This document shows positions 1-42,184 of a stretch of 64,000 nucleotides of DNA, piece after piece (positions within the stretch are counted from its first letter, which is position 1; each line of letters starts with the position of its first letter). Under the pieces are notes generated by a model that saw only the letters and a program-made list of their open reading frames with translations, was not told the origin of the DNA and did not search any database. The DNA is from Candidatus Woesearchaeota archaeon (GTDB lineage: Archaea > Nanobdellota > Nanobdellia > Woesearchaeales > SM23-78). The translations under genes were made by a program, and so were the position numbers. Location: positions 6,792 to 70,791 of the forward strand of contig JAHWIP010000003.1 of the NCBI GenBank assembly GCA_019322375.1. The letters are read 5' to 3'.

Positions 1-25
1 GGATAGAGCTAAACAGGATAAGAAA

Positions 26-1891
26 TTGGATCTTATAAAAATATATGCCATAGGGGAGGACCTCCCTTTTTCATTCTCAGTCCCTGCGATAGATAGAAAA
101 CTTAAATTTGTAGAGTTCCCTTACACCAGCAAAGGGGTATTCGGAGTGTCTCTCTCGTTTCTATTTATCTTTGGCTTTTTCACTCTGATCTCGCTCATAA
201 TAAAGTTATCATCTTTTTTTATTTATTCATTTTTTTTCATAGGACTTATCCTGGTCCTTATCTCTTACATGTATCCTGTTCACATATTCTACACCCAGAG
301 AATGATGAGTTATAGAGAAGAGATGCTTAAATCAATTATGAGAATAGCAACCTTTATCTCAATGAACACCAGCATGGAATATGCAATTATTAATACAAGG
401 CGGCATTTGTGGGGCACTCTGAAAACCCAGTTCACAGATATAGTGAACAAACTCCAAAGAAGAGACTACAACACACTGGGTGATGCTTTTGAACACTACA
501 CTCCCATATGGAACGAGGTTAACCCTGATTTTGTAAAATCCCTTAGATTGATAGAGACCGCAGCCATGTCAAAAGAAGAGGACAGGATGAAAATCCTGGA
601 TGAAGTTCAGGAAACATTAATCATAAGCTATCACACAATGGGCAAGCGGTTTGCAGAAGACCTGTCATCAAAAGCAAAATCATTAGTAACCATAGGAGTT
701 CTTTTTCCTGTAATCTCTTTAATGCTTCTTCCATTAGTATCAGTGTTTCTTCCAGAAGTGGTCAGCACTCCCTTGGTAACCTTCTTCTATACTATCCTGT
801 TTCCTGTGTTGCTCTTGGTCATGGCTCTTAATTTTTCAGCTTTGAGAATACAAGTAGATACTATTCGTATATCAGACTCTCCCTTATACAAGAAACCTTC
901 TGCATGGCTGCTTCTTATAGGAGCAATAATAATCCTTGTTTTTTCAGCACCCACAATAGCCCACCTGCTAACAATTGACATGGCAATACCTGAGAGTGTT
1001 GAGAATGAATACAAATTTGTCTCAATAATTATTTGCCTGCTTTTAGGACTTGGAGTTGCCTTGGCAATTTTTGTTCTAAGCCAGATATATGTAAGGAAAT
1101 ATCATAAGCTATGGAAAGACGTGGATATGACCGAGAGAGACCTGCCTCATCTGTTACAATCCTTTTCAACCTATCTGACCCTGAACCGGTCTGTTGAGAG
1201 CATAATATCTGATATTGTTGATGATTACAAGATTCATGGGTTTTCAAAACACCCTGTTGTAAAATTTTTCTCAAATATTATTCTCCAGTTAAAAGTAAGC
1301 AAAAAGTCAGTTGCAAATCTTGCCAAGACTCTTTTACCCAAGATTTGCCCTTCAAGAAAAGTGAGCGGAACCCTGTCCCAGATAATCTCTTTCACAGACA
1401 TTTCCCAGGAGAGCGCTGCAAAAGCTGCCAAGATGATAAGAAAACAAACCATATCCATTTATCAGCTGGATGATTACATACAAACCATGCTGAGTGAGAC
1501 CATTTCCTTAATCAACATCACAGTATCCCTGCTTGCACCCATATTATGTGCAGCTGCTGTGCTAATGTCAATGGCAATTGTGAAGTCCCTGGTATTTGTA
1601 GAGAAAATACTCTCAGCCCTGGCCTTTGGAGCCAAGATAGATCTGGCCCTGGCAAAAGTGGAATTAATCATTCCCCCAACCATAATCGAAGTTGTAGTGG
1701 CAATCTACCTCTTGGAAATGATACTGGTGCTTTCCTTATTCTCATCAAACATAAAGTATGGTCATGACATGTTTCAATTTGTTAAAACCCTGCTCTCAAA
1801 CCTGATGGGCTTTCTTATCTTTGTGGTAATCCTGGTCCTGGGTTACTACTTTCTTGAAACCCTGGTGTTTGGCGAAATCTTTGCTACGTAG
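26..1891 (+). CDS. Type IV pilus/archaellum-type assembly platform membrane protein (TadC/FlaJ/PilC family, two T2SS-F-like repeats); N-terminus may extend upstream of window
   Basis: 621 aa polytopic membrane protein with two repeated cytoplasmic helical modules each followed by TM segments (GDAFEHY..LRLIETAAMS..ILDEVQETL then TM; second copy SKHPVVKFF..LAKTL..AAKMIRKQ then TM), architecture typical of T2SS-F/FlaJ; followed by many pilin-like genes. Confidence 0.55.
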   Translation: MDLIKIYAIGEDLPFSFSVPAIDRKLKFVEFPYTSKGVFGVSLSFLFIFGFFTLISLIIKLSSFFIYSFFFIGLILVLISYMYPVHIFYTQRMMSYREEMLKSIMRIATFISMNTSMEYAIINTRRHLWGTLKTQFTDIVNKLQRRDYNTLGDAFEHYTPIWNEVNPDFVKSLRLIETAAMSKEEDRMKILDEVQETLIISYHTMGKRFAEDLSSKAKSLVTIGVLFPVISLMLLPLVSVFLPEVVSTPLVTFFYTILFPVLLLVMALNFSALRIQVDTIRISDSPLYKKPSAWLLLIGAIIILVFSAPTIAHLLTIDMAIPESVENEYKFVSIIICLLLGLGVALAIFVLSQIYVRKYHKLWKDVDMTERDLPHLLQSFSTYLTLNRSVESIISDIVDDYKIHGFSKHPVVKFFSNIILQLKVSKKSVANLAKTLLPKICPSRKVSGTLSQIISFTDISQESAAKAAKMIRKQTISIYQLDDYIQTMLSETISLINITVSLLAPILCAAAVLMSMAIVKSLVFVEKILSALAFGAKIDLALAKVELIIPPTIIEVVVAIYLLEMILVLSLFSSNIKYGHDMFQFVKTLLSNLMGFLIFVVILVLGYYFLETLVFGEIFAT

Positions 1892-1894
1892 CGA

Positions 1895-2100
1895 TTAATG
1901 TGCATTTCTTCTGAGTTAGGGGTATCTATGTTGGAGCAAGGGTGGGTGAGGCCGATTCGCGAGGGCATCCCTTAGCTTAACAATCAGAGCGGAGTCGGGG
2001 GACGCCCCAGCCGGGGGAACGGAGCCCTAGGAAAAATAACTAGGCCCGAGCTGGCCCCACCCTTGCGAAGCAACGGCTTGGAGAAATCAGGGCTAATTAG
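1895..2100 (+). ncRNA. GC-rich ORF-free island, candidate structured ncRNA (SRP 7S RNA considered but not confirmed)
   Basis: About 60 percent GC in a one-third GC genome, between convergent genes; perfect 11-bp long-range pairing GCAAGGGTGGG(1938-1948)/CCCACCCTTGC(2059-2069) enclosing several local hairpins (CGGGGGACGCCCC, CCTAGGAAAAATAACTAGG); contains GAAGCAACGG reminiscent of SRP helix-8 3' strand but no GGAA tetraloop in expected place. Confidence 0.35.
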
Positions 2101-2161
2101 CTAAAAATTTATTTTATCTATACAGAATAATAAACAAAATATTTTTCTTTGATAATTCCAT

Positions 2162-2782
2162 TCATATTGTTTTTACAAGGTAGTCTTGCATTATTGTTTC
2201 TCCAGTATTGCCAACTAAGAAATTTTTTGGTAATCCACATCCACCGCCTTTTGCAAACTCTCCAGAATTCGGGTCAAACTCAACCAGATAACAATAATTT
2301 CTTCCAATTACTGGCACCATGTAGTACCATGGCTCTGTTCCACCATTATTTTTTATACCGAATTTAAGGATTGGCTCCTTAATTTCTTCAACTTCTTTAT
2401 CTATATTATCCCTTCCTAGAAGAATCACATTTCCTTGCACAATATCTCCTGCTTTTATCTTTAAATCTTGAAGTCCTTCTTCAGTTAAACCAGTCTCAGT
2501 TTCTATAGGCAGTATATTCTGATTTATTGTTTCTTCAACTTCATTTTTAGAAAGAACAGTTCCTATCTCATACCTACCACCTTCTACACGATTTTTTCCA
2601 ACCACCAGGTAATACCTATCCTGTCCATTTACATCAATTTTAAATAACCAACCACTTAAATACGAATAAGGCCCTTGTGGTATCTGGGTACTTAAAAGAG
2701 AGGAACTTGAAAGAAGGTACAATCCAATGATAGCACAAATCACTATTTCAATTCCAATTATTATCTTATGTGAAGTCTTCAT
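2162..2782 (-). CDS. Hypothetical secreted/membrane-anchored protein
   Basis: 206 aa ORF with N-terminal hydrophobic anchor (IIIGIEIVICAIIGLYLL), no recognisable catalytic motif. Confidence 0.4.
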   Translation of the reverse strand: MKTSHKIIIGIEIVICAIIGLYLLSSSSLLSTQIPQGPYSYLSGWLFKIDVNGQDRYYLVVGKNRVEGGRYEIGTVLSKNEVEETINQNILPIETETGLTEEGLQDLKIKAGDIVQGNVILLGRDNIDKEVEEIKEPILKFGIKNNGGTEPWYYMVPVIGRNYCYLVEFDPNSGEFAKGGGCGLPKNFLVGNTGETIMQDYLVKTI

Positions 2783-2922
2783 ATCTATTCTAATTTTACT
2801 GTTATCTCTATAAAAAACTTTTGTTTAAATTAGAATTATCCTGTGAACCAGCTTTGACTGGATTTATTTCTCAAGCCTCCTAAGCACAAAAGTTATAAAG
2901 GATAAAGCCAGAAATCTAGTGT

Positions 2923-3018
2923 ATGAATCGTACTTTGATTGAGATTATTGGCCTGGTGATAGCTGTGATTGCTATTGGCTTTGCTATTTACAAGGTTATC
3001 CAGGTGCTGGGTGGTTGA
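2923..3018 (+). CDS. Small hydrophobic peptide (31 aa), possible Flp-like mini-pilin or membrane peptide
   Basis: ATG..TGA ORF MNRTLIEIIGLVIAVIAIGFAIYKVIQVLGG ending exactly where next gene starts (tgaATG), below ORF-track size cutoff. Confidence 0.25.
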   Translation: MNRTLIEIIGLVIAVIAIGFAIYKVIQVLGG

Positions 3019-3441
3019 ATGGAAACTGTTGAAATCATTGTGTTCATAGTATTTGCTTTTATGGTTGGCTTTTTAATACTGGGTGTTGTTACTGGCTGGG
3101 ATTTTGGAAAGTATAATGAGGGCTTGAAAAAAGTCTTTTCAGGTGGAGAAGGCGGGGATTTTAAGAAAACCAGTAAAGAAGAATTTGCAGCAGAGGTTTA
3201 TTCTTTTTTTCAGGAATGCAAGGATAAAGGAACCAATATATCCACTTCGTTTTATTTAAAAGAAGAAGGCTCTTTTTCAAAGCAGGAATTATTCCAGGTG
3301 TACAAGGGTTTTGGCTGGTGCAAGTCAATCCAGTCCTTGGAGAATGAGTGCGGCCAGAGAGAGGATGTGACTATGCAGGACCTCCAGCTGCCCAGAGTTG
3401 TGCGTCTGGAATGCAGAGACGAGCACTTAACCATATCTTAG
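3019..3441 (+). CDS. N-terminally anchored small secreted protein (pilin-like/minor pilin candidate)
   Basis: 140 aa; short N-terminus then hydrophobic helix (IIVFIVFAFMVGFLILGVV), several Cys in C-terminal part; first of tandem array downstream of TadC/FlaJ. Confidence 0.4.
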   Translation: METVEIIVFIVFAFMVGFLILGVVTGWDFGKYNEGLKKVFSGGEGGDFKKTSKEEFAAEVYSFFQECKDKGTNISTSFYLKEEGSFSKQELFQVYKGFGWCKSIQSLENECGQREDVTMQDLQLPRVVRLECRDEHLTIS

Positions 3442-3480
3442 TCCATATTGGAATGAAATGTAGAGAGGAATTAAGATAAA

Positions 3481-3891
3481 ATGCAGGTAGCAGAAATTAT
3501 GATTTATGTGATAGTAGCCATTCTTGTCGGCTCTTTAATACTCCTGGCTATGAGGATTGATTATTCAAAGCAGCATTCTGGTTATCAAGAAGCTTTTGCT
3601 AATGAAGAAAAGCCTGTTTTTAAAGTAGAGTCAAAGGATTTTCCTTTGGAAGTTGCTAAGAGATGGGAGGAGTGCGGCTTGGGCACCATGAACAAGTCTT
3701 CTTCTGTTTATGTTCATGATGATGCTCTTATTAATGAGAGTTTTGTGATTACAGAACTAAAAAGGCTTGATAAATGCGATATTATTGATTGTTATAATAC
3801 AGAAAACAGATTTATACTCACAAACTTTCCTATAACCACACCAAAAATTATAAATATCCGTTGTTTTAATAATACTTTAATAATAGGATAG
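3481..3891 (+). CDS. N-terminally anchored small secreted protein (pilin-like)
   Basis: 136 aa; MQVAEIMIYVIVAILVGSLILLAM N-terminal helix; Cys pairs in C-terminus. Confidence 0.4.
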   Translation: MQVAEIMIYVIVAILVGSLILLAMRIDYSKQHSGYQEAFANEEKPVFKVESKDFPLEVAKRWEECGLGTMNKSSSVYVHDDALINESFVITELKRLDKCDIIDCYNTENRFILTNFPITTPKIINIRCFNNTLIIG

Positions 3892-3901
3892 GAACTTTCA
3901 A

Positions 3902-4327
3902 ATGGAACTACCAATAAGAATAATGATAATATTGTTTGTTGCAATTGTTGTAGGTGTGATGATAATAGCTTTTTCAAGAAATATCCTGGAAAGGTCCAAG
4001 GAAAAATTGGACAATCCTCCTGGCTTGGATTTATCAGATGCTGAGGAGCAAAAGATTGTTGAATTAAACAATCTGGATAATTCGCAGTTAATAGAGATGG
4101 TAAGGGCTTGTTATGAGATGCATCATGCAAAGACTTTTAACAGAGAGCTCTGCTTTGTGGTGATAGCCAGCACTTCTTCATGGACCCAGGGTGGTGTGCA
4201 AGGCTATTTTCAGCAGCCAGACAACCTGATTAGTGCCAGTATTGAGTTTGTAGGAAACCCGGATTATGCATTAAAAATATACTATGAAGCCTCTCCTGAT
4301 ATTGAGCAAATCGAGATTTCAAGATAA
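3902..4327 (+). CDS. N-terminally anchored small secreted protein (pilin-like)
   Basis: 141 aa; MELPIRIMIILFVAIVVGVMIIAF N-terminal helix. Confidence 0.4.
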   Translation: MELPIRIMIILFVAIVVGVMIIAFSRNILERSKEKLDNPPGLDLSDAEEQKIVELNNLDNSQLIEMVRACYEMHHAKTFNRELCFVVIASTSSWTQGGVQGYFQQPDNLISASIEFVGNPDYALKIYYEASPDIEQIEISR

Positions 4328-4440
4328 ATAATAGATAAAAATATATAAAAAACAGATAAAAATAACAAACTATATTAATAAGGATTATAATAAACTAATA
4401 ATATATAAGAATAATACATAATAAAAGAAGAGGTGATAAA

Positions 4441-5037
4441 ATGACATTAAAGGTTTCTAGAGGAAAAAAAGGCACAGACAAGCCAATTGAAATCTTTATT
4501 GCTTTATTCGTAATACTGGCAGTGGCAATGGTGCTGTTAAAGATGTTCTCCAGCCAGATAGAGTCTAAGAAGAGAGAAATGGAGGAACAACAGCTACAAG
4601 AGGCTGCAAGAGCAGCCATGGAAGACCTTAACACGTTCTGTGATTCTCAGTGCACGCATGCACACCGTTCATTAAAGGACAAAGTAACTTTTTGCACAAG
4701 CTACTATCGAGAGCACGTTGATATAAATAAAAACAATGTTGTTGATTACACAATGGCATTGGATAATATATACGGCTATTGCGAGGATAGGATTTACTGC
4801 GCTGTTTACAGGCCCTGCAGCAATCTTAACATGGAAAATTGCATTGAAATTCTATGTGATTATTTGGGTGTCAATGCTAATTTAAGAGTCTTTGACATAC
4901 AATACGGCCTTATACTGCCAGGAGATTGTTATGACGCAATAAGAACCTCTGCTGACCAGGATGACATTTTTAAAAAGGCAAATCACTGGTATACAAGCTT
5001 GCTGTCTTCATTTGGCGATCCACCAACCTGCCCTTAA
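4441..5037 (+). CDS. Pilin-like Cys-rich secreted protein
   Basis: 198 aa; basic N-term RGKKGTDKPIEIFIALFVILAVAMVLL (class III signal-peptide-like), about 10 Cys in extracellular part; SD-like GAGGTGA 8 nt upstream. Confidence 0.45.
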   Translation: MTLKVSRGKKGTDKPIEIFIALFVILAVAMVLLKMFSSQIESKKREMEEQQLQEAARAAMEDLNTFCDSQCTHAHRSLKDKVTFCTSYYREHVDINKNNVVDYTMALDNIYGYCEDRIYCAVYRPCSNLNMENCIEILCDYLGVNANLRVFDIQYGLILPGDCYDAIRTSADQDDIFKKANHWYTSLLSSFGDPPTCP

Positions 5038-5086
5038 TCATTATAATAAAGCAAGAAAAAAGCTATCTGTAGGAGCATGACTCAAG

Positions 5087-5353
5087 ATGGACCAGGCAGT
5101 TTGGGCAGTTTTTGGTATTATAGCAGTTCTTATTGGAATCGGGATTTTATTAAATGTGCTTGGAGAGAACAAGGATGAATCAAAGTATATTCTTTTTAAA
5201 CAATCCTTAGACTCACTAAAGAACCAGTGCGATTTTGTGTGCAACTCGCCTGCAGAAACTTATTTATCAATAATGGTTGAGCTGCCTTCTGGCATGCGCC
5301 TCTACACAGACCAGAACAGGATTTGCGCTCATCTGAATATTTATAAAAAATAA
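5087..5353 (+). CDS. Small pilin-like protein
   Basis: 88 aa; N-terminal hydrophobic helix AVFGIIAVLIGIGILL, 4 Cys. Confidence 0.35.
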   Translation: MDQAVWAVFGIIAVLIGIGILLNVLGENKDESKYILFKQSLDSLKNQCDFVCNSPAETYLSIMVELPSGMRLYTDQNRICAHLNIYKK

Positions 5354-5471
5354 TCTGATGAAACCAAGTGCGTGTTATGCAGTTGCCAGGTTGTAGTAAA
5401 AAACAATGAACTCAATCTCCAAACCCCGGCTGCTCTGAAAGCTTTTTCTTCTCATAAATATTCTTGCTTTT

Positions 5472-6119
5472 TTGAAAGAAAAGAAAATGAGATTGAAATC
5501 GAATGTAAGGGCTGATATCCTTGCTAATACTGTTTTATGGTTTGGAATCCTTATAGCAGCCATGATTTGCATGGCATGGCTAGTCAAGAATCTTCGCTCG
5601 CCTTATCTTCCAACAAAAGAACTGGATAATGAGCTTGACCAGTTGCAGCTGGATTTAAACAAGGCCTGCACAATGGATTATTTTTGGAAAAGATACTATC
5701 CCAAGGTTAACAAGGGCAAGCTGATATTCAATGACTTCCAGGTGTGCATGAATGCAGGAGAATGCAAAGTGCTTTTTTTTAAGCCAACCATGCCCAATGC
5801 ATCAGGGCACTTACTTGAAGGAAAAGATATCCTTCTGCCCAATGCAACAGAATGCGAGAATATTGAGCTTTGCCAAGCACTTTTTTTTACATCAGACAAT
5901 GAACCCCCTCTTATTGATTATATTGATGATGCTCAGGGCAGCAGGATAAGGATTAATAATGCTAATGTTTGTGAGCTTAAACCAAAACCAATAACAAGAT
6001 GCAGGCTGCTTACATGTTCATTAAATATAACAGAACATTTTTCCCTGGATAAAATTGTTTACCTTAACATAACAAGAGATAAAAGTGGTGTTTTCAGTGT
6101 TCAGCCAAAAGAATCCTAA
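5472..6119 (+). CDS. Pilin-like Cys-rich secreted protein
   Basis: 215 aa; basic N-term then TM (VLWFGILIAAMICMAWL), about 10 Cys. Confidence 0.4.
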   Translation: MKEKKMRLKSNVRADILANTVLWFGILIAAMICMAWLVKNLRSPYLPTKELDNELDQLQLDLNKACTMDYFWKRYYPKVNKGKLIFNDFQVCMNAGECKVLFFKPTMPNASGHLLEGKDILLPNATECENIELCQALFFTSDNEPPLIDYIDDAQGSRIRINNANVCELKPKPITRCRLLTCSLNITEHFSLDKIVYLNITRDKSGVFSVQPKES

Positions 6120-6147
6120 GCAGAATAAGTCTGGAAAGAAAAAGCCT

Positions 6148-6597
6148 ATGCAAAAAAAATCCAGGCAAAACAAGGGCATATATTCCTTAGCCACTTCCTT
6201 CTTATTTATTATCATATTAATATTTGTGGTCATAGCTGTGGTTTTCTTTTTTAACCTGTTAAAAGCCAAGAGAATGCAGGCAAGTGATGAGCTAGTAAAA
6301 TATGTGCATATAAGGGATGCTAAGAACAAGATTCTTTCATCTGAGTGCTATACGCATATTATAGAAGAAGCAGATGCTGAGCAGGAGTGCTTTCTGCCTG
6401 AAGGCTTTATCAAGGGATATGTTATTGAGATGCTGGTTTATCCTAACTGCACAACCCAGCACAAGACATGGGAGCATATGCTTGTTGAAGATGAAGCAGG
6501 GGCTGGTGAAGAAGGAGAAATTTATCCTTACTTTGTGCCTGTTCAAGCCAATACCACAGGCAATATTTGCCCTGGAAAACTAAAGGTGATATATTAA
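6148..6597 (+). CDS. Pilin-like secreted protein
   Basis: Internal ATG chosen (MQKKSRQNKGIYSLATSFLFIIILIFVVIAVVFFF) giving basic N-term + G + hydrophobic helix; ORF-track start 6085 overlaps previous gene. Confidence 0.4.
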   Translation: MQKKSRQNKGIYSLATSFLFIIILIFVVIAVVFFFNLLKAKRMQASDELVKYVHIRDAKNKILSSECYTHIIEEADAEQECFLPEGFIKGYVIEMLVYPNCTTQHKTWEHMLVEDEAGAGEEGEIYPYFVPVQANTTGNICPGKLKVIY

Positions 6598-6628
6598 AAG
6601 ACAGTATATTAAAAGGTGGTTCACTAAA

Positions 6629-8074
6629 ATGGGAGTTGTTGACAATATAATGGGAGCGGTTCTTGTTGTCCTTATACTATTGATTGCTGGCATTATTTAT
6701 CTGTCCCTTTTTGCACGCGAAGCATCACAGGATATTAGTGTGACCAGCACTGCTTTTTTTAATGGTATAAACACAAATAATTTTAACACTGTTCTTAAAA
6801 TAACAGAGGAGAATTCCCAAAAATCTTTGGGTGTTTTAATTTCAGAAATAACTTATTACAGGTCTTTGCCTGCGCAGTCAGATGACGGACCTAATGTAAC
6901 AGGGACTTTAAAGGATTTGCTGGATACTGCTTTTTCCACTAATGATTATTATTTCAAAGCAGAACCAGAACTAACACAGATTAGTCTGAACTTTGTTTTT
7001 GACGGCACACCCAGCTCTATGCTTAAGAGAAATGTATTAGCAAACAATCTGGTGAATATAATAGACTTTACCCAGGAAAAAATGGATAATAAAAGCAGAA
7101 GCGAGGGGCGTATTCCAAAAAACTCGGTTACAGCAGATGTATACATCATGGGTCCAAGAGGTGACAAATGCAATATCTTTGATGATTTAAACAGGGTTGA
7201 TATAAACTGCCATGGCATTCGCAGCAATGAGATATATTTAAGCGAGGACATGATGCAAGGACTTTTTGTGCCTGGTTTTCTGCTTGACTATGAAATGTAT
7301 CCTCCTTTTGGTTTTGAATGGATTGAGGAGGATGCTAACAGAGAAGACTCATACGTGGCTAATGAAGAAGATTATTATCAAGCTGACTGGGGTTTTGGAA
7401 CAGCTTATGTATCGCATAAACTAAGCAGTGCAGCTTATAGGAATCGTTTAAACCTTATTTTTCCTGTGAGTGATGAACTATCCACCAGCTCTATACCTGA
7501 TGATTGTTTTTACAAGACATTTATTCCTGACTGGGTTGTGTGCGCTCTTTGCGAGGATGAATGCCCTGTTGAAAGAGCTAACATATCCATTAGCAAGGCA
7601 ATAGAAGTGGCAACAGATTATAATCATGTGCTCATACCTGTTTATGGTTATGGAGGTGATTATGAAATAACCCATCCCCAGATTTATGATTGGAATGGCC
7701 TTGCAGGCACTTCAAGATATGTTGATGGTTTTGGAAGCCCTGGAAATACCTGGTGTGATGCTTCTGGGTGTGGTGGTTGTTCAGAACAACAAGGAGGCAT
7801 ATGCTTTCATCCTGATTGTGCAAGCATTCTGCAGGAGCACATGAACAGAATGGCTGATGAAACCAATGGAATATTCATTGACCTGACTGCTAGCCAGCAG
7901 GAATTTGCAGACACCATCTTTTCAACAATAAGCAATATCATGGACCAGTTCACAATAGAGATTGGGGTGAAAAATGAGAGCAGGGAAAGGGATGTGGTGG
8001 AAGTGAAACAGCCCCTGCCAGATGGAAATTCTCTTCCCTTGAAGTTATGGGTGTATAAGAATCAAAACATTTAA
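6629..8074 (+). CDS. Large pilin-like secreted protein (possible pilus tip/adhesin)
   Basis: 481 aa; N-terminal helix MGAVLVVLILLIAGIIYLSLF; Cys-rich C-terminal region. Confidence 0.4.
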   Translation: MGVVDNIMGAVLVVLILLIAGIIYLSLFAREASQDISVTSTAFFNGINTNNFNTVLKITEENSQKSLGVLISEITYYRSLPAQSDDGPNVTGTLKDLLDTAFSTNDYYFKAEPELTQISLNFVFDGTPSSMLKRNVLANNLVNIIDFTQEKMDNKSRSEGRIPKNSVTADVYIMGPRGDKCNIFDDLNRVDINCHGIRSNEIYLSEDMMQGLFVPGFLLDYEMYPPFGFEWIEEDANREDSYVANEEDYYQADWGFGTAYVSHKLSSAAYRNRLNLIFPVSDELSTSSIPDDCFYKTFIPDWVVCALCEDECPVERANISISKAIEVATDYNHVLIPVYGYGGDYEITHPQIYDWNGLAGTSRYVDGFGSPGNTWCDASGCGGCSEQQGGICFHPDCASILQEHMNRMADETNGIFIDLTASQQEFADTIFSTISNIMDQFTIEIGVKNESRERDVVEVKQPLPDGNSLPLKLWVYKNQNI

Positions 8075-8127
8075 ATCAGAATAAATTAAATATATAGAAA
8101 GAAATAATATATAACGAGGTTGGTACT

Positions 8128-9744
8128 ATGAAACTTGATAAAAAAGCATTTGGTAAAAAAGCAAATGTACTTGCTGCTGTTTTAGTAATAATAGTTGTTG
8201 TTGCAGGAACTGTTGTGTTCTCTAATATTGTTGTTAAGAAGTACCCGACAGAAGATTCTCAGGAAAACTTTAACACCCAGGCAGATGCTACTCTTAGGGA
8301 AGCTATTTTCTCAGGCATTGCTGACTGGCTTGAGAACGGGTTTTCGCACAGAACTCCTTTCTGGTATAACAATGAGCCCCGTCCTGTTTCTTTTTCAGAA
8401 GCCCTGGATGCTCTGTACTACTATGTGAATAACAGTGTGAGCAAGAATGCAGATTTATTAACTGATGATGAATCTGATTTCTATGTGGCTCCAGGCGTGC
8501 GCGTGGTGTTTGATATACATAACTCTTTTGACCCTGAATCCCTGGACGGCTCTTTAGAGGATTTTGAGGTTGGCATACAAAAAGAGGATTTAGAGCAATT
8601 ACAAGACCTTTCATCTGAGTTTTCTTATCCTGTAAAAGCAGGCTTGTTCTTCACCACCTTTAACACTTGGATGGAGAGCAATGCTGATAATGTTACCCAG
8701 AACATGTTTGACAAGCTCCTGGAAAAACCATGCCAGTTAGTGACAGGGGTGTGCCTGTGTGATGAGCCTGGAGCAGAGTTTGACCCAGATGCTATAGATA
8801 ATATAAAGCTCAAGTACAGTGATGTTCAGGATGTGCTTGATGAAAGAGTGCAGGCCTTGGAAGATTTGTTTCCTGCTGACGAAAACATTGAGTGCGGATA
8901 CATAGTTGAGAAGCTGAACATAAACAATCATATGTATTCTGACTGGAGCAGAGAAGAAATCGGGCCTGAGCGTACTATAGAAGTTCCAGTGAGAGTAGAC
9001 CCTGATCCGTTTGGCTATGTTTTTAACTTTTTAGAATGGAATGAAACCACAACTTATCCTGAGGAAGAAGACTTGACTTATTTTAACCTAAGACCTCCTC
9101 TGCCTGTTGACACAGGAATACAAGGAGTTTATCCAGGCGATGCAGAGGTTATGAAGAGCTGTGAGGAAGCAATTGCAGACATCCCAGAAGACCCTGACAA
9201 GCCTGTAAAAGTTGGCATGCTTGCCATGAACAAAAAAGTTGCTTTGCTGGCAAAAATCTACTGTGCTCATCCAGAAATAAAAAAATATGGAGAAACAGGT
9301 TTTGAGCCTTTAACAGCAGAATTCAGAATAAGGGTATCCCTTGCTTTGGACTGTCCTTTGCCTAGCTATGATGTGGACAAGCATGTTGGTGAGCCAATAT
9401 ATCAGGAACCATTTATTAATTGCGAAATACCTCCGCCTCCTCTTCCTGAACCTGCTGAGATACCAGTTCCTTGCATGAGTCCTGAGGACTGCCCTGACCC
9501 ATGCGAGGAATGTAATTTAGCTACTGGCAGATGCGTGGATATTCCTAATTGCTGCTGCGGAGTAATTATGCCGTCTGGAATGAAGTGCTGTAGTTGTAAT
9601 AATATCTGCAGTGCTTGCTGTGGCAGGAATTGCCTGCCTGCTGGACGAGTGTGCTGCAAAGGCCAGGTGTGCGCATCAGGACAGATTTGCTGTGGCGGAG
9701 AGTTCTGCTCTTCAAGTGCTGCATGCAGTGCAGCAGTTAGCTAA
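8128..9744 (+). CDS. Large pilin-like secreted protein with extremely Cys-rich C-terminus
   Basis: 538 aa; MKLDKKAFGKKANVLAAVLVIIVVVAGTVVF class III-like N-term; C-terminal 90 aa contain more than 25 Cys (CCCGV..CCSCNNICSACCGRNC..). Confidence 0.45.
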   Translation: MKLDKKAFGKKANVLAAVLVIIVVVAGTVVFSNIVVKKYPTEDSQENFNTQADATLREAIFSGIADWLENGFSHRTPFWYNNEPRPVSFSEALDALYYYVNNSVSKNADLLTDDESDFYVAPGVRVVFDIHNSFDPESLDGSLEDFEVGIQKEDLEQLQDLSSEFSYPVKAGLFFTTFNTWMESNADNVTQNMFDKLLEKPCQLVTGVCLCDEPGAEFDPDAIDNIKLKYSDVQDVLDERVQALEDLFPADENIECGYIVEKLNINNHMYSDWSREEIGPERTIEVPVRVDPDPFGYVFNFLEWNETTTYPEEEDLTYFNLRPPLPVDTGIQGVYPGDAEVMKSCEEAIADIPEDPDKPVKVGMLAMNKKVALLAKIYCAHPEIKKYGETGFEPLTAEFRIRVSLALDCPLPSYDVDKHVGEPIYQEPFINCEIPPPPLPEPAEIPVPCMSPEDCPDPCEECNLATGRCVDIPNCCCGVIMPSGMKCCSCNNICSACCGRNCLPAGRVCCKGQVCASGQICCGGEFCSSSAACSAAVS

Positions 9745-32261: not shown

Positions 32262-32630
32262 CTTAAGGTAGAGCAGTTATAAGCCGCCTTTTGTCAGCCT
32301 CCACGTCTTGCATGGGCAGGCTGTGCTTAACATTCTACTAAGCGTCTCAAAGGACTTGCACCAGTGAGGACTCGCCGTTTCACCCATTCCCATGGCTTAA
32401 AGCGGTCGGGTTGTTAACTCGCGCCCTGTTGCCAGAGTGCTTCATTACCCTCATTCCTATCCATAGGTGGTCTCGTTTCTGAGCCGTTGCCCTGGCTTTC
32501 ACCAGCTAGCTTCCACTAGTCACTTTTCATGGTGGGCGGACTTTCCTAAGCAGAACAAGTCAAAACCGCGCCTTTGAAAGCGCAGGAAATGATAGGTCCT
32601 ACCTGCTGTTAAGCCACTGCCCTACCTGTG
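32262..32630 (-). ncRNA. rnpB: RNase P RNA (type A)
   Basis: On minus strand: GGAAAGUCCGCCCACC (P4 5' strand), AUGGGUGAAACGGCGAGUCC (conserved J11/12-like block), ACAAAAGGCGGCUUAUA (P4 3' strand complementary to GUCCGCC); GC-rich ORF-free about 370 nt. Confidence 0.75.
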
Positions 32631-32754: not shown

Positions 32755-33042
32755 ATGGATAAAAAAGCCCAGGGTCTGAGTATGAATGTTATTATAATAG
32801 CAGCAATAGCTCTTTTAGTGCTTATCATTCTTGCTGTTCTTATCCTGAGAGCAGGTAAAGGAGTGACTGAAGGTACAGGGTGCAGAGGTGTTGGAGGAAT
32901 TTGTTATTCTAGCTGCACAGACTTGATTGAGGACAGAGGCGGAATGTGGGTTAAGAATCTTCCTAACAGCGGAAAGAATGGTGGCTGTTCAATAGACCAG
33001 GTTTGCTGTGTTGAACTATTAGAAACACCTGAGGATTACTAA
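32755..33042 (+). CDS. Small Cys-rich type IV pilin-like protein (major pilin candidate 1)
   Basis: 95 aa; MDKKAQGLSMNVIIIAAIALLVLIILAVLIL class III signal-like; C-terminal 6-Cys module ending QVCCVEL. Confidence 0.55.
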   Translation: MDKKAQGLSMNVIIIAAIALLVLIILAVLILRAGKGVTEGTGCRGVGGICYSSCTDLIEDRGGMWVKNLPNSGKNGGCSIDQVCCVELLETPEDY

Positions 33043-33044
33043 AA

Positions 33045-33335
33045 ATGAAGTTCTTGAATAATAAGAAAGGAGTCCAGCTAACCCTTTCTACAGTGGTTAT
33101 TGCAGTGCTTGTAATCATTGTGCTCATAGTGTTGATAGTGATTTTTACCCAGGGAACAGGCTTGTTCAACATAGGAATAACCAGCTGCGCTGATAGGGGA
33201 GGTAATTGTAATTACGAATCAGCAGATCAATGCGTTGATACTGGCGGCAGTGTTTACAGGTTTGGCAAGTGCACCGACGGGGTTTGCTGTATTCCTAAGG
33301 ACAAGCTTTCAGGGCAAGATGATAATCAAGACTAA
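33045..33335 (+). CDS. Small Cys-rich type IV pilin-like protein (major pilin candidate 2, tandem paralog)
   Basis: 96 aa; MKFLNNKKGVQLTLSTVVIAVLVIIVLIVL; C-terminal Cys module ending GVCCIPKD. Confidence 0.55.
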   Translation: MKFLNNKKGVQLTLSTVVIAVLVIIVLIVLIVIFTQGTGLFNIGITSCADRGGNCNYESADQCVDTGGSVYRFGKCTDGVCCIPKDKLSGQDDNQD

Positions 33336-35157
33336 TAAGAAGAGGGCTGAGCTCACTATAACCCAAGTAGTACTCATGGTTCTGGGTGTAGTTGTTCTTA
33401 TTGTGCTGCTTTTTGTTTTGAAAATAATACCCACAGGAATTAGAAGTCTTACGAGCTGCTCTGACTGGGGGCAGTGCAGGCCAGGAAATGTTTGCGCACC
33501 AAATGAATACATAAAATTTGAAGCAAAGGATGACTGTCCTGCAAACCATGTGTGCTGCGTGCCTACAACCACAAGGCCAGGACCTCTTCAGGATTTTAAT
33601 GAAAAAGAGCTTGAATACCTGAGAAATGCTATTATCATAAAGCTTAACAATGACCCTACGCCTATAAGCGATGTAGCAAGCCTTAACTTAAAAGTTGATA
33701 CTAATTATACATTTCGTATAAGTATTAATGATAAGCTCACCAAGGATAAAAAAACAAGTGAAAAGCTTGGCCCTTGCGCTGTTTATGTGGTTGACACAAG
33801 AGAAGCAGGCAAGAAATATTTATTAACAAATAAAGGCTGGGACTTGATTCTTTCTGACAAAGAGATTGATTTGAGCGGCATAGAGCTGGCTGAGTGCACT
33901 GAAGAAAGCATTAGGTTAAAAAAATATTCTCCTTCACTAAATGATGTTTACAAGGACTTGGTGCTGTATGTTATTCTTTTGGATAAGGAAGTTGTTGATG
34001 CACTTGAAGTATTAGAAACACACGACCCTGGCTTTGTTAAACTAACTGCTCCTGGGTTTGGCAGTGGAATTAATCTCCCTGATAGGGGGATGGCAGCTTT
34101 TTATAATCTCACAACAATGTACAGCAATGTTGACCACTGGCTTGCTTACAGAGCCATAAGACTTAATGTTGAGCCAGTAGTCCAGATTAGTGGTATGAGC
34201 GGAATATGGGTTGACAAGGACCCAATAACCATATCCTGCCCTGATGTTACCTGCATCAGGTTTGGCTTAAAACTAGTGAAACTAAAAGACAATGATTATT
34301 TACAGTTGGTAGAAGAGTGCAAGAAGCCAGAAGGCTTTAAGTACACTCTTGATTATGTTGCAGGAACAACAACAAAAACAACAGGCATACCATTGAACAT
34401 TAATATTGGAGGTTTCAGGATTCCTCCTCAAAGACAAAAACTCCAGTACATTGTAAGCCAAAAACCAATAACTGTTGTTAATAATAAAGCAGATGTTTTG
34501 ATTGACAGGGCTACCATGCTAAAAACCTTTTACTCAGGAGACCACGAGTTATTAATCGAGGACACTACTTATCTTTGCGTAGAAGCCACCAAGGATGACG
34601 GCTCAAAGGTTCATGGGCTCTCAGAGCAGCCTATTAAAGTGGATGTTTTTCCGCCCATGGTTGACCCTGACAAGGATGTGCAGTTATTTTATCCAGACCC
34701 AGTGATCTCATCAGACATATCAACCCCTTATTATTACAGGAAGTACCCTAAGATTGTTGTTTCTGGATGCTATGATTATGGCCAGAGCGGATGCACTAAT
34801 TATGATTACTATATTCATTCAGGAGAATTTGTTAATCTAAGGTCTCTGACAGCAGAGTGGGAGATAGGAATTGCTTCTTTGATACTAACAGAGGGCTTGA
34901 ATGCCCTGCTCACTTATTTTGCAGAAAAAGATGCTGTCAACACTATATGCCCGTTTATAACCAGCCATTCTTACACAAGAAACACCCGCAATGAGATAAG
35001 AATCCCAAGGCAAGGGCAGGGCATAATATGCATCAGGGTTAGTGACAAAGTAGGCAACAAAGACATTATCTGGAAGGTGCTCTGGACACCTGAAGAGATG
35101 TTCAAGAAAATTATTGCAGAAGGAGTGGCAGAGGCAGAAGAAGCAGTGACTGGATAG
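33319..35157 (+). CDS. Large pilin-like secreted protein (N-terminal module paralogous to small pilins)
   Basis: Start at MIIKTNKKRAELTITQVVLMVLGVVVLIVLL; same Cys module (..NHVCCVP) then about 500-aa extracellular region. Confidence 0.5.
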   Translation: MIIKTNKKRAELTITQVVLMVLGVVVLIVLLFVLKIIPTGIRSLTSCSDWGQCRPGNVCAPNEYIKFEAKDDCPANHVCCVPTTTRPGPLQDFNEKELEYLRNAIIIKLNNDPTPISDVASLNLKVDTNYTFRISINDKLTKDKKTSEKLGPCAVYVVDTREAGKKYLLTNKGWDLILSDKEIDLSGIELAECTEESIRLKKYSPSLNDVYKDLVLYVILLDKEVVDALEVLETHDPGFVKLTAPGFGSGINLPDRGMAAFYNLTTMYSNVDHWLAYRAIRLNVEPVVQISGMSGIWVDKDPITISCPDVTCIRFGLKLVKLKDNDYLQLVEECKKPEGFKYTLDYVAGTTTKTTGIPLNINIGGFRIPPQRQKLQYIVSQKPITVVNNKADVLIDRATMLKTFYSGDHELLIEDTTYLCVEATKDDGSKVHGLSEQPIKVDVFPPMVDPDKDVQLFYPDPVISSDISTPYYYRKYPKIVVSGCYDYGQSGCTNYDYYIHSGEFVNLRSLTAEWEIGIASLILTEGLNALLTYFAEKDAVNTICPFITSHSYTRNTRNEIRIPRQGQGIICIRVSDKVGNKDIIWKVLWTPEEMFKKIIAEGVAEAEEAVTG

Positions 35158-35321
35158 CAAGTTAACTTAACATCTCCCTTCTTAATAAAACCGAAAGTTT
35201 ATTATAATTCTGTTATGATAGATTAGGATATGAAAAAAGGAGATTTGTCAACACTGGCAACTGTTATAATTATATTATTAACTCTTGTGTTTATAATCTT
35301 TATTTTCGGAAGAATCTATGG

Positions 35322-36299: not shown

Positions 36300-36300
36300 A

Positions 36301-37197: not shown

Positions 37198-37280
37198 AAA
37201 ACTTAATTTGGTGATTTAGTTAAAGCGAAAGCATTAAAAAACACAAAAGCATAAAAAATCTTGAAACAAGAGGTTTTAAC

Positions 37281-37442
37281 ATGAGTTATGGCATGAACCG
37301 TATGAACAAGAAAGCCCAGGAAACAATGAGTCCTGAAGGCGGCACACTAAGAATAATATGGTTTGTGATTGTCTTATTAGTACTTATTATTATTGTTTAT
37401 TTTGTTGCAACAAATTTTAAACTAATCAAACTGCCATTTTGA
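37281..37442 (+). CDS. Small membrane peptide (53 aa) within pilin cluster
   Basis: MSYGMNRMNKKAQETMSPEGGTLRIIWFVIVLLVLIIIVYFVATNFKLIKLPF; below ORF-track cutoff. Confidence 0.3.
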   Translation: MSYGMNRMNKKAQETMSPEGGTLRIIWFVIVLLVLIIIVYFVATNFKLIKLPF

Positions 37443-37451
37443 GGTTAAGAA

Positions 37452-38285: not shown

Positions 38286-38352
38286 GTTTGTGACAGAGCA
38301 TTAAAATACACTGAGACACATTAAAATAATAGCAAAGTTTATATACAAAGAT

Positions 38353-39081: not shown

Positions 39082-39154
39082 CAATGCTAAAATAAATTTT
39101 ATTATCATAAAATATTTAATTATTAAAAAAAATTGATTGCAAAGGTGAACTATT

Positions 39155-42169: not shown

Positions 42170-42184
42170 CAGCGAGTGATTTGA

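What the first reader, a model, noticed from the sequence alone, without database searches (positions are those of the whole stretch)
26..9744. Second pilus-like locus holds a TadC/FlaJ platform followed by about 10 anchored secreted proteins
A 621-aa two-repeat T2SS-F-like polytopic membrane protein at the window edge is followed on the same strand by a tiny hydrophobic peptide and nine genes. Each begins with an N-terminal helix, and most are Cys-rich. The last has more than 25 Cys in its final 90 residues (CCCGV..CCSCNNICSACCGRNC). The assembly ATPase (FlaI/TadA-like) is expected just upstream, off-window. Together with cluster 2 this genome devotes more than 23 kb of this 64 kb window to surface filament or secretion components.
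Basis: partly seen in the sequence, partly recalled or inferred. Interest (0 to 1): 0.55.

Follow-up and report, generated by a model that had tools for sequence, protein, structure and literature searches.

The report
DPANN archaeal type IV pilus-like gene cluster
This is a conserved but so far unannotated type IV pilus-like assembly machine of tiny symbiotic (DPANN) archaea, encoding a membrane platform plus nine pilin-like surface proteins, five of which oddly lack the leader peptide that normally defines pilins.

Summary
The window is from a Candidatus Woesearchaeota (DPANN) contig.

- **ATPase.** The predicted off-window ATPase exists. An identical Logan contig holds a 576-aa PF00437 ATPase ending 10 nt before the window.
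- **Downstream genes.** A conserved 31-aa membrane peptide and nine plus-strand genes follow. They are conserved and mostly collinear with the ATPase-platform pair in 41 of 50 related DPANN loci.
- **Pilin-like families.** Four have canonical class III signal peptides. Five start directly at Met1 with a conserved Glu/Asp at position 2 or 5 and no leader. One of these is a VWA-fold adhesin-like protein.

Corrections:
- A non-conserved minus-strand gene (2162-2782) interrupts the array.
- One gene carries an in-frame stop.
- The last 90 residues hold 22 Cys, not more than 25.
- No prepilin peptidase is in the window.
- Cluster 2 is not paralogous.

Verdict: a new variant of a known kind, of moderate interest.

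The parts
1..25 (+). Intergenic spacer. The FlaI/TadA-type secretion ATPase (576 aa, off-window) ends 10 nt before window position 1.
   Evidence: L001 overlaps window 1-2017 with 0 mismatches. The ATPase is at L001 1347-3077 and window position 1 equals L001 3087. PF00437 scores 62.9 bits. Walker A GPRGSGKT, Asp box RIITIEDTQEL and Walker B LIIGEVR are readable in the translation.
26..1891 (+). Platform protein (621 aa): a divergent T2SS-F/FlaJ/TadC/PilC-type polytopic membrane protein with two cytoplasmic helical domains.
2162..2782 (-). Non-conserved 206-aa membrane-anchored ORF inserted in the cluster. It is probably not part of the machine.
   Evidence: It has no tblastn hit in 49 related loci. 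It is a singleton cluster, NCBI KY348_00220.
2923..3018 (+). Conserved 31-aa single-helix membrane peptide (M-[NSQ]-[KR]-T-...). Its stop codon abuts the start of the next gene.
   Evidence: A 30-37-aa ORF with the same N-terminal motif lies 0-7 nt upstream of the g03 homologue in at least 15 loci, and 27-61 nt upstream in three more.
3019..3441 (+). g03: leaderless pilin-like protein (140 aa) with M1-E2-x-x-E5, a hydrophobic helix and 4 conserved Cys.
   Evidence: Glu5 is present in 24 of 26 family members.
3481..3891 (+). g04: paralogue of g03 (136 aa), leaderless, with M1-Q/E2-x-x-E5 and 4 conserved Cys.
   Evidence: hhalign g03~g04 probability 100%. Glu5 is present in 22 of 22 members.
3902..4327 (+). 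g05: leaderless pilin-like protein (141 aa) with N-terminus M-E-L-P-I and 2 invariant Cys.
   Evidence: hhalign aligns g05 residues 1-39 with g06 residues 12-50 (probability 96.3%, E 1.5e-9), so Met1 aligns with the +1 residue after the g06 cleavage site.
4441..5037 (+). g06: pilin-like protein (198 aa) with a canonical class III signal peptide (RGKKG|TDKPIEIFIALFVILAVAMV). It has the most conserved helix and 8-9 conserved Cys.
   Evidence: (24-sequence alignment). Homologues were found in 33 loci.
5087..5515 (+). g07: leaderless pilin-like protein (M-D/E-Q-x-V-W, 8 conserved Cys). In this window it is interrupted by an in-frame TAA at 5351-5353.
   Evidence: Homologues are single ORFs of 132-152 aa. 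The stop replaces a Tyr of the closest relatives.
5472..6119 (+). g08: pilin-like protein with a class III-type signal peptide (..VRA|DILANTVLWFG). The likely true start is the ATG at 5487.
   Evidence: (family motif [KR][GA]|D[ST]).
6085..6597 (+). [quoted passage not shown] The likely true start is the ATG at 6148.
   Evidence: family motif [KR]G|[IV]Y; 4 conserved Cys.
6629..8074 (+). g10: leaderless N-terminal helix (M-x-x-x-D/E5-N) fused to a VWA-fold domain with a MIDAS-like motif (DGTPS here, DGSxS in the family consensus). It is adhesin-like.
8128..9744 (+). [quoted passage not shown]
   Evidence: Homologues of 800-1100 aa extend the Cys-rich region, and some carry Hint/intein-like modules.

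Best explanation
Window 26-9744, together with the ATPase gene just upstream, encodes a type IV filament (type IV pilus-like) assembly machine that is specific to and widespread in DPANN archaea.

**Shown**
- A FlaI/TadA-clade hexameric-type secretion ATPase gene sits next to a very divergent two-domain T2SS-F-type membrane platform.
- These two are genetically linked, across Woesearchaeota, Iainarchaeia, Micrarchaeota and Nanoarchaeota-labelled MAGs, to one conserved 30-aa membrane peptide and nine families of proteins.
- Each of the nine has a pilin-style N-terminal hydrophobic helix and a Cys-rich domain with conserved, mostly even-numbered cysteines.

**Inferred mechanism**
- The ATPase docks on the cytoplasmic domains of the platform.
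- The platform extracts the helix-anchored subunits from the membrane and stacks them through their N-terminal helices into a filament or a short pseudopilus.
- Four subunits (g06, g08, g09, g11) carry class III signal peptides. They must first be trimmed by a PibD/FlaK-type prepilin peptidase encoded elsewhere.
- Five subunits (g03, g04, g05, g07, g10) are translated without any leader. Met1 lies where the mature residue +1 of a pilin would be, with a conserved Glu/Asp at position 5 (g03, g04, g10) or 2 (g05, g07).
- I take these five to be 'born-mature' minor-pilin-like subunits that form the priming or tip complex.
- In that complex the VWA-fold protein g10 and the large Cys-rich g11 act as the adhesive modules that contact a host or partner cell.
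- The abundant shaft subunit is either g06, which has the most conserved helix, or small class III pilins encoded elsewhere, for example the tandem 95/96-aa genes of cluster 2.
For: **ATPase**
- PF00437 above threshold. It lies 34 nt upstream of the platform start.
- Nearest solved relatives are A. fulgidus GspE2 (3.7e-21), CpaF and FlaI.

**Platform**
- The family profile reaches a PF00482-positive protein at 1.5e-47.

**Linkage**
- The ATPase-platform pair is adjacent in 45 of 45 loci with upstream DNA.
- At least one of g03-g11 lies within 10 kb in 41 of 50 loci.
- The full collinear order g03..g11 is kept in L007, L008, L010, L011, L013 and L018. L005 runs off its contig end after g09, and in L009 g11 lies on the opposite strand.

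**Class III motifs**
- They are conserved per family: [KR][KR]G|[TS]EKPIEIF, [KR][GA]|D[ST], [KR]G|[IV]Y and KK[AG]|N.

**Leaderless starts**
- The conserved Met is the first possible start in most loci.
- SD-like 5-mers lie upstream in 17-39% of cases, against 3% at random positions.
- The N-flank averages about 5 residues with 0-0.5 Lys+Arg. The class III families have 11-19 residues with 3-4.6.
- g05 Met1 aligns to g06 residue +1 (hhalign 96.3%, E 1.5e-9). g03~g05 scores 88.7%.

**Extracytoplasmic location**
- Cys content is 2.3-5.6% against 0.75% in cytoplasmic proteins.
- Cys columns are 85-100% conserved and mostly lack CxxC spacing.

**g10 and the literature**
- g10 has a VWA fold, with pilus tip adhesins and the S. 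sanguinis T4P modular pilin PilB among its hits.
- The role of Glu5 and of tip complexes of minor pilins is established knowledge (PMC10191384; PMC12075869).
Against: - No filament has been seen, and nothing here is experimental.
- The window platform protein itself fails Pfam T2SSF and a PDB profile search. The Foldseek E-values were not significant.
- No prepilin peptidase was found in the 64-kb window or in the flanks of 49 loci, though that was only a crude GxGD-plus-TM scan.
- The five leaderless proteins fail the defining feature of type 4 pilins, a leader ending in Gly/Ala.
- With an acidic N-flank that has no Lys/Arg, the positive-inside rule would if anything favour an N-out/C-in topology. 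That would put their domains in the cytoplasm.
- No pilin Pfam or PDB sequence match exists for any of the nine.
- No obvious small, duplicated major pilin lies in the locus.
- g07 is broken in this genome.
- The closest relative locus L004 has the ATPase-platform pair without the pilin set nearby.
Confidence: 0.68

Rival explanations
1. The machine is the same, but the five leaderless proteins are not filament subunits. They stay in the membrane as unprocessed structural parts of the apparatus: a stator, alignment or anchor complex. FlaF/FlaG play this role in the archaellum, and PilN/PilO or TadG in bacterial systems. Only the four class III proteins would be polymerised.
For: - They lack the leader and the Gly/Ala cleavage site that define pilins (definition in PMC10191384).
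- FlaF and FlaG are listed as single-copy 'minor archaellins' among the seven archaellum components (PMC4858521). That they are N-terminally anchored and left unprocessed is my own knowledge.
- TadG-type VWA proteins have been proposed to anchor pili to the membrane (PMC4858521).
- Each is single-copy and strictly conserved, as expected of machine parts.
Against: - Glu/Asp5 is conserved inside the hydrophobic helix: 46 of 48 in g03/g04 and 18 of 24 in g10. This is the signature of helix-helix packing in filaments.
- g05's N-terminus is homologous, in register, to the mature end of the processed g06.
- Long g10 homologues carry beta-helix, PKD, Ig and reprolysin modules typical of distal adhesins.
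Confidence: 0.3
2. This is not a long pilus. It is a short pseudopilus or 'bindosome'-like surface-display or secretion device. The ATPase-platform pair would insert or project a fixed set of nine different helix-anchored proteins, adhesins and enzymes, at the cell surface. It might also push out or position other class III proteins such as the cluster 2 hydrolases.
For: - Nine different single-copy subunits are present and none is an obvious small major pilin.
- The Sulfolobus bindosome and bacterial T2SS are precedents (10.64898/2026.04.22.720090).
- Cluster 2 (32755-46639) holds 13 class III-type proteins, including Amidase_2 and Peptidase_M23, but has no ATPase or platform of its own in the window.
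Against: - g06 has an extremely conserved helix, as expected of a polymerising subunit.
- Tip-adhesin-like architecture (VWA, large modular homologues) fits an extended filament better.
- No substrate-binding-protein or ABC transporter genes are linked.
Confidence: 0.2
3. The downstream genes are ordinary signal-anchored secreted or surface proteins that merely lie next to an ATPase-platform pair, with no functional connection. Alternatively the locus is an archaellum or a conjugation/DNA-transfer (VirB11-type) system.
For: - No Pfam, NCBIfam or PDB sequence match ties any of the nine to pilins.
- The ATPase also gives weak matches to TrbB/VirB11 models.
- L004 shows the pair alone.
Against: - Linkage and gene order are conserved across deeply diverged DPANN lineages, at platform identity 40-67%.
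- Four families have canonical class III motifs.
- No archaellin, FlaH, VirB4 or VirD4 was found among the proteins scanned in the window or in L001.
- The ATPase scores 100 bits against a 550-bit FlaI equivalog cut-off and 54 against 250 for VirB11.
Confidence: 0.04

Closest known systems
Archaeal type IV pili / TFF systems, e.g. the 11-gene Epd pilus cluster of Methanococcus maripaludis and the DPANN 'dark matter' pilus islands noted by Makarova, Wolf & Koonin (PMC4858521, PMC6393860; classification in bioRxiv 10.64898/2026.04.22.720090)
   Same: - A FlaI/TadA-clade ATPase lies next to a TadC/FlaJ-type platform, followed by many fast-evolving class III signal-peptide proteins.
- The cluster is of similar size, about 12 genes.
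- The organisms are archaeal.
- The literature already anticipated that DPANN components escape sequence detection.
   Different: - There is a single fused platform of about 620 aa that Pfam T2SSF does not detect. The DPANN members of system 1 and subsystem 4A are described with two platform genes.
- Five of the nine pilin-like families have no leader peptide.
- A conserved 30-aa peptide is present.
- No dedicated peptidase lies in the locus, whereas Epd has EpdA.
- I could not assign it to an arCOG-based subsystem because those models are not available here.
Bacterial Tad (type IVc) pilus with the TadE/TadF/TadG tip complex, and the Myxococcus Kil system
   Same: - The ATPase is closest to TadA/CpaF and FlaI.
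- The platform is of the TadB/TadC type.
- There is a set of minor-pilin-like proteins with modular C-terminal domains.
- A large VWA-type member (g10) parallels TadG.
   Different: - There is no Flp-type pilin of 40-60 aa with a G|xxxxEY motif.
- There is no secretin and no RcpC or TadZ, and the cell has an archaeal envelope.
- TadE and TadF are processed by a prepilin peptidase (my own knowledge), whereas g03, g04, g05, g07 and g10 have nothing to cleave.
Streptococcus sanguinis T4P modular minor pilin PilB (vWA module; PDB 7b7p) and other VWA pilus tip adhesins (SpaC, RrgA, GBS104, Mfa5)
   Different: - Pfam VWA does not detect g10.
- g10 has no leader peptide.
- It has 11 conserved Cys, including CxxC-type clusters.
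Archaellum accessory proteins FlaF/FlaG (ArlF/ArlG)
   Same: They are small, single-copy proteins, listed as 'minor archaellins', encoded in a type IV filament operon. From my own knowledge, they have an N-terminal hydrophobic helix and are not processed by the prepilin peptidase.
   Different: - There is no sequence match.
- The locus lacks archaellins, FlaH and FlaC/D/E.
- g03/g04 carry a conserved Glu5 and disulfide-type Cys that are not described for FlaF/FlaG.

Membership tests
T2SS-F / PilC / TadC / FlaJ platform proteins (Pfam PF00482) | The protein itself matches the PF00482 T2SSF domain model. | tested here: not met
   No Pfam family at E<=1 for window 26-1891. Only 2 of 32 family members give sub-threshold T2SSF hits, and 8 of 32 hit the related Spore_III_AB.
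T2SS-F / PilC / TadC / FlaJ platform proteins (Pfam PF00482) | Homology to proteins that pass the PF00482 threshold. | tested here: met
   The family profile A1 matches P0160 over positions 20-615 at E 1.5e-47. P0160 scores 36.2 bits on PF00482 against a 25.2 cut-off, at residues 111-238.
T2SS-F / PilC / TadC / FlaJ platform proteins (Pfam PF00482) | Helical-bundle cytoplasmic domain fold of GspF/PilC. | tested here: met
T2SS-F / PilC / TadC / FlaJ platform proteins (Pfam PF00482) | Two tandem T2SSF repeats, each followed by transmembrane helices. | tested here: inconclusive
   Relatives hit T2SSF in the N-half (P0087 112-232, P0160 111-238) and in the C-half (P0099 384-522). The TM pattern fits two repeats. 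Direct N-half versus C-half hhalign is weak (probability 6%, E 0.006), although it is in register at 101-160 versus 373-438.
T2SS-F / PilC / TadC / FlaJ platform proteins (Pfam PF00482) | Encoded next to its cognate T2SS-E family ATPase. | tested here: met
   Shown by L001, L002-L004 and 45 of 45 loci with upstream DNA.
T2SS-E / FlaI / TadA secretion ATPases (PF00437) | PF00437 above threshold with Walker A, Asp box and Walker B motifs. | tested here: met
   62.9 bits against 24.9. GPRGSGKT, RIITIEDTQEL and LIIGEVR are visible in the translation. PDB relatives are GspE2, CpaF and FlaI.
Archaellum (FlaI equivalog plus archaellins, FlaH, FlaF/G) | The ATPase reaches the FlaI equivalog score, and archaellin and FlaH genes are present. 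| tested here: not met
   NF058587 scores 100 bits against a 550 cut-off. No Arch_flagellin or FlaH hit in any scanned protein.
Type 4 pilins (class III signal peptide, IPR012902-type) | Short hydrophilic leader ending in Gly/Ala, preceded by Lys/Arg, then 20-25 hydrophobic residues. | tested here: met
   Met for g06 (KKG|T), g08 (VRA|D), g09 (NKG|I) and g11 (KKA|N), with the motif conserved in each family. This row refers to these four proteins only.
Type 4 pilins (class III signal peptide, IPR012902-type) | The same leader feature, tested for g03, g04, g05, g07 and g10. | tested here: not met
   The hydrophobic helix starts about 5 residues after Met1, and the N-flank has 0-0.5 Lys+Arg with no conserved Gly/Ala at position -1. 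The hydrophobic helix and the Glu/Asp5 feature are present: 24/26, 22/22 and 18/24.
Type 4 pilins (class III signal peptide, IPR012902-type) | Processing by a prepilin peptidase (Peptidase_A24) encoded in the genome. | not testable with these tools
   None was found among the window proteins scanned, nor by a GxGD-plus-TM scan of the window and 49 loci. The rest of the genome could not be searched.
Type 4 pilins (class III signal peptide, IPR012902-type) | 'Lollipop' fold and incorporation into a filament. | not tested
   Only g10 was modelled (N-terminal helix 4-33 plus VWA).
von Willebrand factor A domain (PF00092), for g10 | VWA Rossmann-like fold. | tested here: met
von Willebrand factor A domain (PF00092), for g10 | Match to the Pfam VWA model, and a MIDAS DxSxS motif. 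| tested here: inconclusive
   No PF00092 hit in any of 23 family members at E<=0.01. The family consensus has FVxDGSxS with invariant D125 and G126, and the window protein has DGTPS. A g03-like protein in L039 does carry PF00092.

The most novel reading that the evidence does not exclude
DPANN archaea possess a class of 'born-mature' type IV pilin-like subunits. They are translated without any leader peptide, so Met1 occupies the position of the mature residue +1 and a conserved Glu/Asp sits at position 5 (or 2). They would be incorporated by the ATPase-platform machine into the filament tip without any prepilin peptidase step. This would break the rule that a cleavable class III leader ending in Gly/Ala defines every type 4 pilin. 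It would also raise the question of how such proteins achieve N-in/C-out topology without positive charges.
Probability: 0.3. Interest if true: 0.7.

Novelty: new variant of a known kind. Interest (0 to 1): 0.45.

Why it matters
- **Biology.** DPANN archaea are ultra-small and, where cultivated, are obligate episymbionts. How they find and hold on to hosts is largely unknown.
- **What the cluster offers.** This ATPase-platform pair, with its linked 30-aa peptide and pilin-like genes, recurs across Woesearchaeota, Iainarchaeia, Micrarchaeota and Nanoarchaeota-labelled MAGs. Related platform proteins occur in Aenigmatarchaeota. Every member for which a source gives a name is called 'hypothetical protein'. 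That makes it a concrete, testable candidate for the attachment apparatus, with a VWA-fold candidate adhesin.
- **Annotation.** Standard domain models (Pfam T2SSF, VWA and the pilin families) miss the whole system, so censuses based on them may undercount type IV filament machines in DPANN.
- **General interest.** The leaderless pilin-like families, if they are true filament subunits, would bear on the role of leader peptides and prepilin peptidases in type IV filament assembly.

Tried and rejected
- **Direct Pfam and NCBIfam scans.** Scans of all ten locus proteins gave nothing meaningful.
- **PDB profile searches.** Searches for the platform, g06, g10 and g11 families gave nothing.
- **Paralogy between locus 1 and cluster 2.** BLASTP and family HMMs found no significant match. 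Rejected.
- **Internal duplication of the platform at sequence level.** Only a weak in-register match was found.
- **AF2 on g10 with a 21-sequence alignment taken from loci.** It was redone with 11 database homologues.
- **More upstream DNA.** The look-up through the NCBI 540-aa version of the platform failed because it is not on record. The look-up for g10 failed likewise.
- **Read-through between the tiny ORF and g03.** They are in the same frame in the window, but spacing in other loci is 0-7 nt and often not a multiple of 3. A read-through fusion is therefore rejected and tight translational coupling is more likely.
- **Tiny peptide as an Flp-like pilin.** The window copy reads R-T-L-I-E, like bacterial FTLIE. 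The Glu is not conserved in homologues and the peptide is only about 30 aa. Not supported.
- **Bacterial promoter and terminator scan.** The counts were at background level.
- **tRNA scan.** None was found.
- **Motif scan for a prepilin peptidase.** It found only a signal-peptide-peptidase (SPP) gene in L039.

Full report
**Origin and observation**

The window is archaeal. It carries an archaeal RNase P RNA at 32269-32573, plus RadA and tRNA-splicing endonuclease genes. The 621-aa protein is 100% identical to KY348_00215 of a Candidatus Woesearchaeota MAG.

- A 621-aa polytopic ORF lies at 26-1891.
- A 31-aa hydrophobic ORF lies at 2923-3018.
- Nine plus-strand genes follow, ending at 9744. 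Each has a single N-terminal hydrophobic helix, and most are Cys-rich.

Three details need correcting:
- The last 90 residues of the final protein hold 22 Cys, not more than 25 (30 in all).
- A 206-aa minus-strand gene (2162-2782) interrupts the array. It has no homologue in related loci.
- The gene at 5087-5515 is broken by an in-frame TAA at 5351-5353. All homologues are single 132-152-aa ORFs, and the closest have Tyr at that position. The Logan assembly of run SRR14699983 is identical over 3692-5279 but ends 72 nt before the stop, so I cannot say whether the stop is real.

**The upstream ATPase**

An exact-protein look-up returned a Logan contig (L001) whose last 2017 bases are identical to window 1-2017. 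It encodes a 576-aa protein ending 10 nt before the window.
- The protein passes Pfam T2SSE (62.9 bits, cut-off 24.9).
- Its best NCBIfam matches are TadA and FlaI, about 100 bits each. That is far below the equivalog cut-offs, so it is not an archaellum FlaI.
- Its nearest solved relatives are A. fulgidus GspE2, CpaF and FlaI.
- Walker A, Asp box and Walker B motifs are intact in the translation. The N-terminus has a C-x2-C...C-x2-C motif.

**The platform protein**

Direct tests failed. There was no Pfam hit at E<=1, nothing in NCBIfam, and no PDB sequence hit with a 32-sequence profile.

Indirect tests succeeded:
- A profile search of 1.84 billion representatives found 605 relatives. Among them is P0160, matched end to end at E 1.5e-47. 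P0160 scores 36.2 bits on PF00482 against a 25.2 cut-off.
- Two other relatives give sub-threshold T2SSF hits, one in the N-half and one in the C-half. Eight of 32 family members hit the related Spore_III_AB model.

I conclude that this is a highly divergent member of the T2SS-F/TadC/FlaJ superfamily. The 'two-repeat' description is plausible but only weakly shown at sequence level.

The family and its sister groups occur in Woesearchaeota, Iainarchaeia/Diapherotrites, Micrarchaeota, Nanoarchaeota-labelled MAGs, Aenigmatarchaeota and Nanopusillaceae. Every member for which a source gives a name is called 'hypothetical protein'.

**Conservation of the whole cluster**

A scan of GTDB species representatives gave 49 loci. 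tblastn with the window proteins shows three things:
- The ATPase lies directly upstream of the platform in all 45 loci that hold upstream DNA.
- At least one of the nine downstream families lies within 10 kb in 41 of 50 loci.
- The full collinear order is kept in L007, L008, L010, L011, L013 and L018. L005 keeps it as far as its contig end (g09), and L009 keeps it except that g11 lies on the opposite strand. Elsewhere the set is rearranged in blocks (g03/g04; g05-g06-g07; g08-g09-g10-g11).

The tiny ORF is also conserved. A 30-37-aa ORF beginning M-[NSQ]-[KR]-T lies 0-7 nt upstream of the g03 homologue in at least 15 loci, and 27-61 nt upstream in three more. Chance co-location is therefore excluded. 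This is a conserved module of about 12 genes.

**What the nine proteins are**

None matches a Pfam, NCBIfam or PDB sequence family. Their N-termini fall into two conserved classes.

*Class III signal peptides (g06, g08, g09, g11).*
- The motifs are KKG|TDKPIEIF (g06), VRA|D (g08), NKG|IY (g09) and KKA|N (g11).
- The N-flank is 11-19 residues with 3-4.6 Lys+Arg.

*Leaderless (g03, g04, g05, g07, g10).*
- They start at a conserved Met only about 5 residues before the helix, with essentially no Lys/Arg.
- A conserved acidic residue is present. Glu5 occurs in 24/26 (g03) and 22/22 (g04) members, and Asp/Glu5 in 18/24 (g10). Glu/Asp2 occurs in 27/28 (g05) and 27/27 (g07).
- In most loci no in-frame start exists further upstream.
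- SD-like motifs are enriched 6-13-fold over background before these Met codons.

Profile-profile comparison links the families:
- g03 and g04 are paralogues (probability 100%).
- g03 and g05 are distant relatives (88.7%).
- g05 residues 1-39 align with g06 residues 12-50 (96.3%, E 1.5e-9). Met1 of g05 therefore sits exactly at the residue that follows the predicted cleavage site of g06.

The cysteines point to disulfide-bonded, extracytoplasmic domains. They are 85-100% conserved, mostly in even numbers, and usually lack CxxC spacing. Cys content is 2.3-5.6%, against 0.75% in cytoplasmic proteins of the same window.

**g10 and g11**

g11 homologues are often 800-1100 aa with an extended Cys-rich region. 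In L007 and L009 they carry two tandem Hint/intein-like modules.

**Mechanism**

*Shown.* The gene content, the homologies above and the conserved linkage are shown.

*Inferred.*
- The ATPase powers the platform to extract helix-anchored subunits from the membrane and assemble them through their N-terminal helices.
- The four class III proteins need a prepilin peptidase encoded elsewhere.
- The five leaderless proteins mimic already-processed pilins. Their free Met1 amine and Glu5 are the pair that forms the inter-subunit salt bridge in type IV filaments (PMC10191384).
- I take the five to form the priming or tip complex together with the VWA protein. Minor-pilin tip complexes in bacteria are the model, namely S. 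sanguinis PilA/B/C and TadE/F/G (PMC12075869).
- A role in host or partner-cell attachment is inferred from the DPANN lifestyle and the adhesin-type domains.

*Weak points.*
- No peptidase was found in the window or in locus flanks.
- The leaderless proteins fail the formal pilin definition.
- Their acidic N-flank, which lacks Lys/Arg, would by the positive-inside rule favour the opposite topology.
- The main rival is that the leaderless proteins are unprocessed machine parts in the manner of FlaF/FlaG or TadG.

**Comparison with the literature**
- Makarova et al. (PMC4858521) catalogued archaeal type IV pili. For one ATPase subclade also present in nanoarchaea they could not identify the cognate pilins, and two nanoarchaea lacked a peptidase.
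- Makarova, Wolf and Koonin (PMC6393860) explicitly described DPANN 'dark matter' islands next to the secretion ATPase (written 'FliI' in the text) and TadC as probable diverse pilins.
- The 2026 preprint by Sivabalasarma and Albers classifies archaeal TFF systems. It assigns DPANN members to system 1, to Aap-like systems and to subsystem 4A, the first and last with two platform genes.

The present cluster fits the general kind, but its details differ. It has a single fused, Pfam-invisible platform, a conserved 30-aa peptide, a fixed set of nine families, five of them leaderless, and a VWA-fold member. I could not run arCOG or MacSyFinder models, so its place in that classification is open.

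**Cluster 2**

The 13 genes at 32755-46639 all have class III-like N-termini. They include an Amidase_2 and a Peptidase_M23 protein. They show no sequence relationship to locus 1, and no ATPase or platform of their own lies in the window. They may be additional substrates of the same machine, but this is speculation.

**Verdict**

It is a new variant of a known kind of system. Interest is moderate (0.45), because such DPANN pilus islands were anticipated in the literature. The conserved leaderless pilin-like families are the one feature that could prove surprising.

Noticed in passing
window 48092-50200 (-): A 702-aa protein with complete bacterial sigma-70 regions 1.2, 2, 3 and 4 (Pfam, all above threshold) lies on an archaeal (Woesearchaeota) contig, next to an RPA-like OB-fold protein (46636-48078).
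   Followed up: no
window 32755-46639 (+): 'Cluster 2' is 13 consecutive genes that all have class III-type N-termini (..KKG|LS.., ..KKA|..). They include an N-acetylmuramoyl-L-alanine amidase (37452-38285, PF01510) and a 1257-aa Peptidase_M23 protein (42866-46639). These are bacterial cell-wall hydrolases carrying pilin-type signal peptides in an archaeon. No ATPase or platform is nearby, and there is no paralogy to locus 1.
   Followed up: partly
window 5351-5353: An in-frame TAA splits g07. Homologues have Tyr here. The independent Logan assembly breaks 72 nt upstream, so this could be a real pseudogene, a strain variant or an assembly error.
   Followed up: partly
window 2162-2782 (-): An orphan 206-aa membrane-anchored ORF is inserted between the platform gene and the conserved tiny ORF. 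It is a singleton among about 15 billion proteins at 90% clustering and is absent from 49 related loci.
   Followed up: partly
L007 17497-20775 and L009 18427-21732 (g11 homologues): Two tandem Hint/intein-like modules (Pfam Hint, Intein_splicing, PT-HINT, Hom_end_hint) are inserted at about residues 430-735 of the g11 homologues in close relatives. They are absent from the window copy.
   Followed up: partly
L001 619-1215 (-), i.e. about 1.9-2.5 kb upstream of the window: A 198-aa coiled-coil protein with a C-terminal membrane anchor is divergently transcribed from the ATPase. tblastn finds homologues in 13 related loci (L004, L005, L007-L014, L022, L029, L030), and in most of them the hit lies upstream of the ATPase. 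It is a possible additional component or regulator.
   Followed up: partly
L001 1347-3077 (ATPase), residues 17-36: The secretion ATPase has an N-terminal C-x2-C...C-x2-C motif (Cys17, 20, 33, 36), suggesting a zinc-ribbon-like N-terminal domain.
   Followed up: no
L004 (JGI 3300017613) and L006: Two of the closest relatives (66-67% platform identity) keep the ATPase-platform pair but have no g03-g11 homologue in the about 10 kb held downstream. In some genomes the pilin-like set must be elsewhere or lost.
   Followed up: no
window 58923-61412 (-) and 32269-32573 (-): An 829-aa N-terminally anchored protein with a Peptidase_C25 (gingipain-like) domain. Separately, a full-length archaeal RNase P RNA (Rfam RF00373, 121 bits).
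   Followed up: no
L039 1945-6350: In a distant relative the pilin-like proteins upstream of the ATPase carry bona fide Pfam VWA domains. An 815-aa protein has a g03-like N-terminus and PF00092 at E 5e-11. This supports a recurring link between this machine and VWA modules.
   Followed up: partly
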